Source: Balanoglossus misakiensis (taxonomy: Eukaryota; Animalia; Hemichordata). Taken from it: DNA of 64,000 nt. The stretch covers positions 6,913,579 to 6,977,578 of the forward strand of contig CM082593.2 of NCBI GenBank assembly GCA_040954595.2. Reading direction: 5' to 3'. A program made the translations under genes and the position numbers. Within the stretch, counting starts at the first letter, position 1; every line of letters starts with the position of its first letter. Positions 32,701 through 34,478 of this stretch are shown here, piece by piece. A model generated the notes under the pieces. It was given only the letters and a program-made list of their open reading frames with translations. It was not told where the DNA came from and ran no database searches.

Positions 32701-34478
32701 TGTATTCTTTAAAAATCATCATTCCGTGTGTACCTAGATAAACATGCCCGTGGCATCATTGAATGCTTCCCTGGTGTCCCTACAACAACGACAGGACTGG
32801 ATGAAATGATGCCTTCATAATGTACCATTTTCATCTTTTCCATCCATAGCCAGTGGCAGTCAGCCCCTAACTATGGTGTTTTCTTCTTAAATATTCAATT
32901 TCCCCCTGATTAGCCATTTAAACCACCCACGGTAAGCTGGGTTGACAGTAGTGTTTTTGGGGCATTCACTGAATATCTTTTCTCTTTTTCTCGATCAACA
33001 GCCGGAGAGTGCGTATCAAGGAGGCGTGTTCTTTTTAGCCATTCATTTCCCAACAGATTATCCATTTAAACCGCCAAAGGTAAGCTCATTGTCATGTGAT
33101 GATGTGTAGTGCAAAGGCAATGTCTGAACAGCGTGCTATAGGTGAGATGCACATGGTAACCATCTGGCATTTAAATGGAAATGCTGTGTGTGATTTCCAC
33201 CATCTTTGAACCCTTTCACCCCCCAGTTCACTCTTTAAGAGGTCCAACTTCACCATAGAAAACAATGGGTTTGGACTGAACTATGGTGGTGAAAGGGTTA
33301 AAGTTATTTGGCTGTTTCTCTTTCTGAAGTGCAGAATTGCTGTTACTGATGGCGCCGGTAACACACAGTTTGCTGTGGCTCCATGTAAATAATCCAATGC
33401 AGCGACTTCAGCTCTTTTAATCCTTCGAGCCAGGCTCAAATGAATGACATCATAGGTCACCAGGGGGTCAGGGTTCAAAGTGCGAAATCACCAGTGAATT
33501 ATTAAGCCATGGTAACAGCAGTGCTCTAGCAATACACCCGTTGGGATTCTCATAGACGTGCTACATGTTCGCGGCATTCCATAAATGCGGTATATGAATA
33601 TGTCTCTCCTGAAATGCTACATGCAAACGAAATCATTTTCCTAAGTCGGATCAGAATTAGTATAATGTATATTGGTCAGCACATGGAAGACAAAAGACTT
33701 TACTGAAGAATCTCAAACGATACACATCAGAATGAAAAAAAAAAAACTCGTATCGGCAGTAGTGGGGAGGGGTTCCTCAACCATGTTGTATGAAAGGGTT
33801 CAGTTCAGCCGTAGGCATTTCCCCGATACTTACACGGAATCACTGTTGCTTTTTCCAGGTGTCCTTCACAACTCGGATTTATCACCCAAATATTAACAGT
33901 AATGGTAGTATCTGTTTGGATATTTTGCGGTCACAGTGGTCGCCAGCATTAACAATATCTAAAGGTGAGTGAGTGCGTGGTTGCCATCTCTCTGGGAGTG
34001 ATATACGACTTTGATGACTTTGGATAGTGGCCCTTTTTCACATACCACTGACTTGTATATGTTTATAGTCCTGATCAACACCAAAGTTTTCAGTCTTCAA
34101 AGTTCTTCAGATTGTATAATTAATTCTTGGCTGGTGGTGGAGACACATGGCTGAGAAAGTTTTCTATTTTTCTAATCCAGTACATCAGTTATAGTTATGA
34201 TACTGAAATCTATATTTTTCCATTTGAAATATTTACTCAAAGCAGTGCATATCAAAATAATGAGCAATTTTTGGTAAGATTCCCCCTAAACTGACAAGCT
34301 TCATTAAACGTTCTTTTATTATTTGTTCTTTTTTTCAGTATTACTATCAATTTGTTCACTATTATGCGATCCTAATCCAGACGACCCATTGGTGCCCGAA
34401 ATAGCGCGTATATACAAAACAGACCGACCCAAATACAATTCGCTTGCACGGGAATGGACAAGTAAATACGCGATGTGA
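29784..34478 (+). CDS. UBE2D: Ubiquitin-conjugating enzyme E2 D (UBE2D/Ubc4/effete), canonical copy, 6 exons, 147 aa
   Basis: Exons 29784-29807, 30941-31004, 32022-32053, 33002-33079, 33859-33964, 34339-34478 (444 nt). Protein: [150 protein letters not shown] motif and catalytic Cys85 are intact. Confidence 0.97.
32854..32931 (+). other. Duplicated UBE2D exon 4 ('4a') with an in-frame stop; candidate mutually exclusive poison exon or pseudo-exon
   Basis: CCAG|...ACG|GTAAGC defines 78 nt, the same length as exon 4. It translates [25 protein letters not shown] versus [26 protein letters not shown], and lies 70 nt upstream of the real exon 4. Confidence 0.75.
33211..33297 (-). mobile_element. 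~87-bp TTAA-type MITE, copy 3 (UBE2D intron 4), reverse orientation
   Basis: Perfect 10-bp terminal repeats CCCTTTCACC / GGTGAAAGGG; right flank TTAA, left flank TGAA. The interior is the reverse complement of copies 1 and 2. Confidence 0.8.

What the first reader, a model, noticed from the sequence alone, without database searches (positions are those of the whole stretch)
32850..33079. Tandemly duplicated UBE2D exon 4 converted into a candidate mutually exclusive poison exon
Seen: a homolog of exon 4 lies 70 nt upstream of the real exon 4. It keeps a polypyrimidine tract, tandem acceptors (TAG at 32847-32849, CAG at 32851-32853) and a strong donor G|GTAAGC. The CAG gives exactly 78 nt with TAG (32911-32913) where Tyr of DYPFKPP should be. 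The upstream TAG gives PVAVSP*, with TAA at roughly the Tyr of 'SPY'. So both routes hit stops at former Tyr positions while the splice sites survive. Branch-point candidates for the real exon (TTCAC/CTGAA, ~32965-32973) are only ~35-40 nt from the 4a donor. Established: such short 5'SS-to-branch spacing enforces mutual exclusivity (alpha-tropomyosin-type steric mechanism), and a stop more than 50-55 nt upstream of the last junction (here ~124 nt) triggers NMD. Inference: an exon-switch AS-NMD dial controlling E2 dosage. The truncated 59-aa product would lack Cys85.
Basis: partly seen in the sequence, partly recalled or inferred. Interest (0 to 1): 0.8.

Follow-up and report, generated by a model that had tools for sequence, protein, structure and literature searches.

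The report
Broken duplicate exon in UBE2D gene
A ubiquitin-enzyme gene (UBE2D) of what is likely an acorn worm carries a stop-containing second copy of its fourth exon 70 bases before the working one; the copy likely once served as an alternative coding exon and is now most likely a decaying relic, though an untested role as a message-destroying switch remains possible.

Summary
32850/32854-32931 is a real copy of UBE2D exon 4 (nhmmer E 1.7e-11), with two main acceptors, a G|GTAAGC donor and a 70-nt spacer. All four possible acceptors give an early stop. The genome is probably an acorn worm's. New here: codons 8-26 differ from exon 4 at 2, 2 and 11 of 19 first, second and third positions. Neutral decay since duplication is rejected (p 0.002-0.018), so the copy was probably a coding, mutually exclusive exon until about 0.1-0.17 substitutions per site ago. 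The acceptor is weaker than exon 4's and sits in a predicted hairpin. The neighbouring paralog and 42 of 42 distant loci lack a copy; no DNA of a close relative and no RNA could be examined. Verdict: relic of a coding mutually exclusive exon (0.5); working SCN8A-18N-like poison exon (0.3).

The parts
32850..32931 (+). Exon 4a, degenerate copy of UBE2D exon 4: 82 nt from the TAG acceptor, 78 nt from the CAG acceptor (start 32854)
   Evidence: E 1.7e-11 over 32874-32929
32826..32853 (+). Pyrimidine tract and tandem acceptors TAG (32847-49; score 4.9 bits, 4th of 31 AGs in intron 3) and CAG (32851-53; 1.2 bits, 8th); the real exon-4 acceptor scores 9.0
   Evidence: matrix from 59 UBE2D acceptors, which included the real exon-4 acceptor
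32868..32870 (+). TAA stop, 7th codon on the TAG route, probably the former Tyr of S-P-Y
32911..32913 (+). TAG stop in place of the Tyr of D-Y-P-F, which is Tyr in 35 of 35 compared exons
32932..32937 (+). 4a donor GTAAGC, same intronic hexamer as exon 4's donor; best-scoring GT inside intron 3 after the true donor (2nd of 57); exon side ACG against AAG in exon 4
32932..33001 (+). 70-nt spacer; candidate branch adenosines at 32968 and 32972, 37 and 41 nt from the 4a donor; its first 46 nt resemble the start of intron 4
   Evidence: alignment score 5; best of 39 unrelated donors 2
32841..32878 (+). Predicted hairpin pairing CCAUAG (TAG acceptor) with CUAUGG inside 4a; -13.5 kcal/mol, z -2.8; stretch chosen after inspection
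   Evidence: 7 of 371 AG-centred windows fold as well, this one included
32752..32813 (+). Predicted hairpin just upstream of 4a's candidate branch point (A at 32817); z -2.9; stretch chosen after inspection
33002..33079 (+). Working exon 4 of UBE2D gene A (78 nt)
29784..34478 (+). UBE2D gene A, six coding exons (29784-29807, 30941-31004, 32022-32053, 33002-33079, 33859-33964, 34339-34478), 147 aa, Cys85
37967..40651 (-). UBE2D gene B, intact diverged paralog (115 of 147 residues identical), tail to tail with gene A; no detectable 4a in its intron 3

Best explanation
Exon 4a is a stop-containing tandem copy of UBE2D exon 4 that likely served for a time as an alternative, mutually exclusive coding exon and is now most likely a mostly silent relic. 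A local duplication of about 150 nt copied the acceptor, the exon and about 45 nt of the next intron (inferred). That left the new donor 37-41 nt from the predicted branch point of exon 4, which would force a choice of one exon or the other. While both exons were used, selection kept the protein code of the copy (inferred). Constraint then lapsed, and the copy took a 6-nt insertion, a 2-nt deletion and two Tyr-to-stop changes (alignment-based inference). Any message that still uses 4a would carry an early stop and would probably be destroyed, but as leakage rather than as a selected control.
For: Shown: differences in codons 8-26 fall 2, 2 and 11 of 19 on the three codon positions (Fisher p 0.0003). 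In simulations with a copy neutral from birth, 0 of 2400 runs reached the observed pattern, and 6 of the 378 runs with at least 10 third-position differences had 4 or fewer at the first two positions. A codon model with a constrained then a neutral phase beats neutral-since-birth (p 0.005-0.018 over six settings; 0.008 for codons 8-26 and 0.002 with five 5' codons added). The neutral phase is 0.10-0.14 substitutions per site (95% range 0.015-0.30). Three of the four missense changes (Asn, Gln, Thr) occur in 1, 2 and 1 of 35 working exons; the fourth (Pro at codon 18) in 0 of 35. Flanks match gene A's own exon-4 flanks better than nearly all unrelated splice sites, so the origin is local. For present silence: weaker acceptor (4.9 and 1.2 bits against 9.0), predicted acceptor-masking hairpin, and splice-site survival that needs no selection (about 0.4). 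No copy in gene B or in 42 distant loci.
Against: The same codon pattern would arise if the exon passed from coding to a conserved non-coding role, so the data do not separate relic from poison exon. The donor is still near-perfect. Both Tyr codons became stops. The flank similarity dates the duplication younger (best near 0.3 per lineage) than the codons do (0.5-0.8); at a fixed age of 0.3 the gain over neutrality is small (2dLL about 3), and joining the two lines by hand leaves p about 0.01-0.02. Only 19-24 codons are compared, the stretch was chosen after inspection, and equal rates in both copies are assumed. Mean pairing of the 4a TAG acceptor (0.48 and 0.75 in two window sizes) is matched or exceeded in each window size by some working acceptors of gene B (0.60-0.72 in the smaller, 0.98 in the larger), so predicted masking does not prove silence.
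Confidence: 0.5

Rival explanations
1. Working poison exon. 4a is chosen instead of exon 4 in some cells, the short spacer enforcing the choice, and the stop sends the message to decay, which lowers UBE2D output, as exon 18N does for SCN8A. The hairpin over the acceptor would be part of the switch.
For: All four acceptors give stops 124 nt or more before the last junction. The donor hexamer equals exon 4's; no other AG lies between 32794 and the TAG acceptor; a branch candidate sits 32 nt upstream. The spacing is below the steric limit. Both Tyr codons became stops. A past as a used exon is the natural route to such a switch.
Against: Splice-site survival is expected by chance about 40% of the time. 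The TAG acceptor ranks 4th of 31 AGs in its intron, below two other cryptic AGs. Absent from gene B and from 42 distant loci. I found no paper on a UBE2D poison exon.
Confidence: 0.3
2. Dead on arrival. The duplicate was never used and has decayed neutrally; the codon pattern is a fluctuation in a short stretch, or the piece came already diverged from another paralog.
For: The flank date (about 0.2-0.5) overlaps the best neutral age (0.25-0.3). 4a is equally distant from exon 4 of A and of B (42 of 57 each) and shares the Gln codon with B.
Against: Neutral-since-birth is rejected at p 0.002-0.018. The flanks resemble gene A (13 of 20) rather than B (9 of 20).
Confidence: 0.13
3. Still coding. 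The TAG at 32911 is an allele, an assembly error or is read through, and the 78-nt CAG route makes a variant enzyme with a changed loop.
For: The CAG route has exactly the length and frame of exon 4 and only one stop; the coding signature extends past the stop.
Against: That route replaces the near-invariant P-Y and G positions (33, 33 and 31 of 35 exons). The CAG acceptor is poor (1.2 bits). No 4a-like protein appeared in two searches, both insensitive. No strong helix covers the TAG that would suggest A-to-I editing (z 0.14).
Confidence: 0.07

Closest known systems
SCN8A exons 18N/18A (and SCN1A exon 20N)
   Same: An alternative exon beside the working exon whose use gives a premature stop; 18N is described as a poison exon alternative to 18A (PMC8652244, PMC7790302, passages). 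That 18N and 18A arose by tandem duplication is recalled, not seen in those passages.
   Different: 18N is conserved from fish to human and shown to be regulated by stage and tissue. 4a has no RNA evidence, is absent from the adjacent paralog and distant loci, and lies in a ubiquitin-conjugating enzyme gene.
Sterically enforced mutually exclusive exons (alpha-tropomyosin, OGDH 4a/4b)
   Same: Donor-to-branch distance under about 50 nt: 25-41 nt in human OGDH (PMC7969005, passages), predicted 37-41 nt here; a 70-nt test intron with a 46-nt distance was not spliced in HeLa extract (PMC6692369, passages).
   Different: In OGDH both exons are coding and the branch points are mapped and lie far from the acceptor. 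Here the whole intron is short, one exon is broken, the branch point is only predicted, and the limit has not been measured in hemichordates.
Cryptic conserved poison exons of human introns
   Same: Intronic exon-like stretch that would trigger decay (PMC11632617, passages; UBE2D is not named in its main text; supplement not read).
   Different: Those exons show no third-position drop in conservation between species; 4a shows a third-position excess against its sister exon, a sign of a coding past (a different comparison).

Membership tests
UBE2D/UBC4-5 (gene A) | UBC domain with HPN motif and Cys85, closest to UBE2D | tested here: met
   147 aa, HPN at 75, Cys85; best solved-structure matches of exon 4 are UBE2D1-3; Pfam UQ_con
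Poison mutually exclusive exon (SCN8A 18N type) | Tandem homologous exon pair | tested here: met
Poison mutually exclusive exon (SCN8A 18N type) | Inclusion gives a stop more than 50-55 nt before the last junction | tested here: met
   4 of 4 acceptors give stops; 124 and 167 nt for the two main routes. That this rule holds in hemichordates is not known to me.
Poison mutually exclusive exon (SCN8A 18N type) | Exon is spliced into RNA and rises under NMD block | not testable with these tools
   no RNA run could be laid on the locus
Poison mutually exclusive exon (SCN8A 18N type) | Regulated by tissue or stage | not testable with these tools
   needs RNA
Poison mutually exclusive exon (SCN8A 18N type) | Splice sites and stop conserved across species | tested here: inconclusive
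   No copy in gene B or in 42 of 42 distant loci, 30 with all of intron 3 in view; none of these is known to be a hemichordate, so conservation within the lineage is untested
Sterically enforced mutually exclusive exons | Donor-to-branch distance under about 50 nt | tested here: inconclusive
   Predicted 37 or 41 nt; branch point not mapped; limit measured in mammals
Sterically enforced mutually exclusive exons | Both exons encode the same protein segment in frame | tested here: not met
   4a is closed in every route today; a coding past is inferred
Docking-site/selector mutually exclusive exons | Both exons compete for one intronic pairing site | tested here: inconclusive
   The best duplex partners of the two exon ends are at different places; no shuffles were run and no related sequence was available for covariation

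The most novel reading that the evidence does not exclude
An acorn-worm lineage turned a coding mutually exclusive exon of a core ubiquitin-conjugating enzyme into a regulated poison exon, recently enough that the coding signature is still legible. The deletion that broke the frame also completed a hairpin over the acceptor, which would set how much message is diverted to decay. It would be an SCN8A-18N-like switch caught early in its evolution, in a gene family where my searches found none reported.
Probability: 0.25. Interest if true: 0.55.

Novelty: new member of a known kind. Interest (0 to 1): 0.3.

Why it matters
If it is a relic, it is a clear small example of the life cycle of a duplicated exon: used, constrained, then lost, with a spacer that would have made the choice exclusive from the start. 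If it is used and regulated, it shows how a poison exon can arise from a coding mutually exclusive exon, and gives a splicing-level control of UBE2D dose. The junctions are exactly defined, so one RNA data set would decide.

Tried and rejected
No whole genome is held for this window. RNA runs: no RNA holder was listed for 29700-35100, so no reads were laid; this says nothing about expression. A 4a remnant in intron 3 of gene B: a resemblance seen by eye was not significant (p 0.13; 0.15-0.99 over five scoring schemes), rejected. Local alignment of the bases after the two donors, without the donor itself, was not significant (p 0.18-0.65); only the global alignment that includes the donor stood out, so the flank evidence is modest. 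Protein searches with the 4a read-through: 1 candidate and no hit among proteins of 80-2000 aa; 5 hits among representatives, of which I read 4: three E2-type proteins and one unrelated repeat protein, none 4a-like. Both searches are weak for so short a query. A search with exon 4 gave 50 short fragments, none with 4a-type residues throughout. Metagenome scan: 115 loci of about 140; 0 of 115 carry a stop at the Tyr; 2 of 115 (L026, L064) hold a second exon-4-like stretch 600-700 nt downstream that looks like a neighbouring E2 gene; neither is among the 42 loci with an acceptor directly before the 78-nt exon. I dropped the other 73 loci from the column counts because they lack that acceptor, the G-V/I-F-F motif or enough upstream DNA. 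Viral scans: 22 matches to the stop version, none E2-like; 45 matches in viral contigs and 2 in prokaryote-genome contigs, 0 of 47 with a stop, one (L139) with a second E2 stretch about 690 nt away. Rfam gave only below-threshold matches to a simple repeat at 36691-36769. The whole region 32700-33300 folds no better than shuffles (z -0.9). Ten paper searches found no report of this exon; the library lacks most subscription papers and I read no supplements, where exon lists could hold it. PMC3401437 is marked retracted (passages) and is not used. Earlier findings of this scan: nothing by sequence, relatives or genome; eight unrelated poison-exon notes by words. One search had exons 1 and 6 off by one base; one search corrects this.

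Full report
Setting. The window holds two intact six-exon UBE2D genes tail to tail: gene A (+, 29784-34478) and gene B (-, 40651-37967). Both are 147 aa with Cys85, share 115 of 147 residues, and all ten introns are GT-AG. Exon 4 of gene A matches human UBE2D1-3 best among solved structures. A neighbouring PH-domain protein is 66% identical to one from Glandiceps talaboti and 65% to one from Saccoglossus kowalevskii, against 43% to a crinoid's, so the animal is probably an acorn worm. No whole genome is held.

Observation. The repeat finder reports 32875-32938 and 33023-33086 as a 64-nt pair, 77% identical, 148 nt apart. A profile built from exon-4 sequences of other eukaryotes finds exactly three hits in 64 kb: exon 4 of A, exon 4 of B, and 32874-32929 (E 1.7e-11). 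All four candidate acceptors (exon starts 32850, 32854, 32860, 32864) lead to a stop inside 4a. The two main routes give 46 and 59 aa products without Cys85, with 167 and 124 nt to the last junction.

Anatomy of the copy. The last 57 nt align without gaps. The 5' part matches the D-S-P-Y profile only at GTC AGC CCC TAA (10 of 3655 intronic positions score as well). The TAG acceptor followed by CCA GTG lines up with exon 4's acceptor and CCG GAG: 13 of 20 intronic bases and 4 of 6 exonic bases match, against 10 and 3 for the CAG, and 1 of 40 unrelated acceptors reaches 13. The simplest history is therefore a 6-nt insertion and a 2-nt deletion in the first 25 nt, plus two Tyr-to-stop changes; this is inferred from the alignment. 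The first 46 nt of the spacer align to the start of intron 4 with score 5, where the best of 39 unrelated donors scores 2, but local tests without the donor were not significant (p 0.18-0.65). I read this as a local duplication of about 150 nt, which makes the 70-nt spacer a by-product of the breakpoints.

A coding past. In codons 8-26 the copy differs from exon 4 at 2, 2 and 11 of 19 first, second and third positions (Fisher p 0.0003). Over all 26 codons in the CAG frame the counts are 8, 6 and 15. The right null is a working exon under selection and a copy neutral from birth. Under it, 0 of 2400 simulated pairs reached the observed pattern, and 6 of 378 with at least 10 third-position differences had 4 or fewer elsewhere. 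A codon model with a constrained then a neutral phase fits better than neutral-since-birth in all six settings (p 0.005-0.018), with a total age of 0.5-0.8 and a neutral phase of 0.10-0.14 substitutions per site, 95% range 0.015-0.30. Adding five aligned 5' codons gives p 0.002 and a neutral phase of 0.11-0.17. Against this, the flank similarity fits an age near 0.3 best, where the gain is small (2dLL about 3); joining both lines by hand leaves p about 0.01-0.02. The stretch is short, was chosen after inspection, and equal rates are assumed. Three of four missense changes occur in 1, 2 and 1 of 35 working exons, the fourth in none. In human data, coding exons but not poison exons show a third-position drop in conservation (PMC11632617, passages), though that is a between-species measure. 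So 4a was probably translated for a good part of its life, most simply as a mutually exclusive alternative to exon 4.

Exclusivity. Candidate branch adenosines for exon 4 lie 37 and 41 nt from the 4a donor. About 50 nt are needed in mammalian systems, and a 70-nt intron with a 46-nt distance was not spliced in HeLa extract (PMC6692369, passages); OGDH exons 4a/4b use 25-41 nt (PMC7969005, passages). In C. elegans the cited limit is an intron under 40 nt (PMC4165533, passages), so the limit depends on the lineage and is unmeasured here. Gene A's introns are 374-1133 nt. Exclusivity is plausible but predicted only. It is also not needed for a poison effect, since including both exons keeps the stop.

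Is it used now? This cannot be shown with what I had. With the fitted neutral phase, seven splice-signal bases stay intact by chance with probability 0.38-0.50 (range 0.12-0.90), so survival carries little weight. The donor is strong (2nd of 57 GTs in intron 3, counting the true donor), but its exon side reads ACG, not AAG. The TAG acceptor scores 4.9 bits and the CAG 1.2, against 9.0 for exon 4 and a training median of 11.2; two other cryptic AGs in the intron outscore it (the matrix included the real acceptor). A predicted hairpin pairs the TAG acceptor with CUAUGG, the segment altered by the deletion (z -2.8; 7 of 371 AG windows fold as well). It could silence a harmful exon or tune a useful one, and some working acceptors of gene B are predicted to be as paired.

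Conservation. Gene B has no detectable copy. Of 115 metagenome loci with the exon-4 end and donor, 42 have an acceptor directly before the 78-nt exon (33 distinct exons, some fungal-like); 30 of the 42 show all of intron 3 and 12 show 19-2946 nt of it. None of the 42 has a second copy and none of the 115 has a stop at the Tyr. So this is not a general feature of the gene family. None of these loci is known to be a hemichordate, so conservation among close relatives is open. No 4a-like protein was found, by weak searches.

Comparison with what is known. It would work like SCN8A exon 18N, a poison exon alternative to 18A, conserved from fish to human and regulated by stage and tissue (PMC8652244, PMC7790302, passages). 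It meets the sequence features of that class; use, regulation and conservation are untested or inconclusive, so I do not file it as a member. Ten searches found no paper on a UBE2D exon of this kind (listings only). PMC12772994 (passages) reports unannotated copies of a duplicated exon in distant species, which shows that such copies are a known class. No supplements were read.

Verdict. Real feature, ordinary class. Relic of a coding mutually exclusive exon 0.5; working poison exon 0.3; never used 0.13; still coding 0.07. Interest 0.3; 0.55 if the regulated switch is confirmed.

Noticed in passing
window 37967-40651 (-): Second intact UBE2D gene, tail to tail with gene A, 115 of 147 residues identical, with changes at usually fixed positions (Pro57 to Gln, Asn81 to Arg); it may buffer gene A's dose or have a specialised role.
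   Followed up: partly
window 41211-64000: 88-bp satellite array, about 260 copies, 97% matches, starting about 560 nt upstream of gene B's start codon.
   Followed up: no
window 33206-33302: Strong hairpin in intron 4 (-40.4 kcal/mol for 33200-33302), with a further partial match at 33463-33480; possibly a small transposon remnant. Similar-looking sequence lies near 7150-7240 and 26835-26920 (seen by eye; not aligned).
   Followed up: no
window 32207-32231 and 33173-33197: 25-nt inverted repeat, 76% complementary, bracketing both 4a and exon 4; may be chance.
   Followed up: no
window 3400-8855 (+), 19841-20761 (-), 27151-27402 (-): Neighbouring genes: a sodium/proton exchanger, a single-frame PH-domain protein whose closest relatives are from hemichordates and a crinoid, and an exon of a CDGSH iron-sulfur protein.
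   Followed up: partly
L043, L071, L019: Diverged UBE2D-type exons in other organisms carry the same residues as 4a (N-I-Q in L071 and L019; P-P-T in L043), so these changes are tolerated in apparently working genes.
   Followed up: partly
L026, L064, L139: Two E2-like stretches 600-700 nt apart, apparently tandem genes.
   Followed up: no
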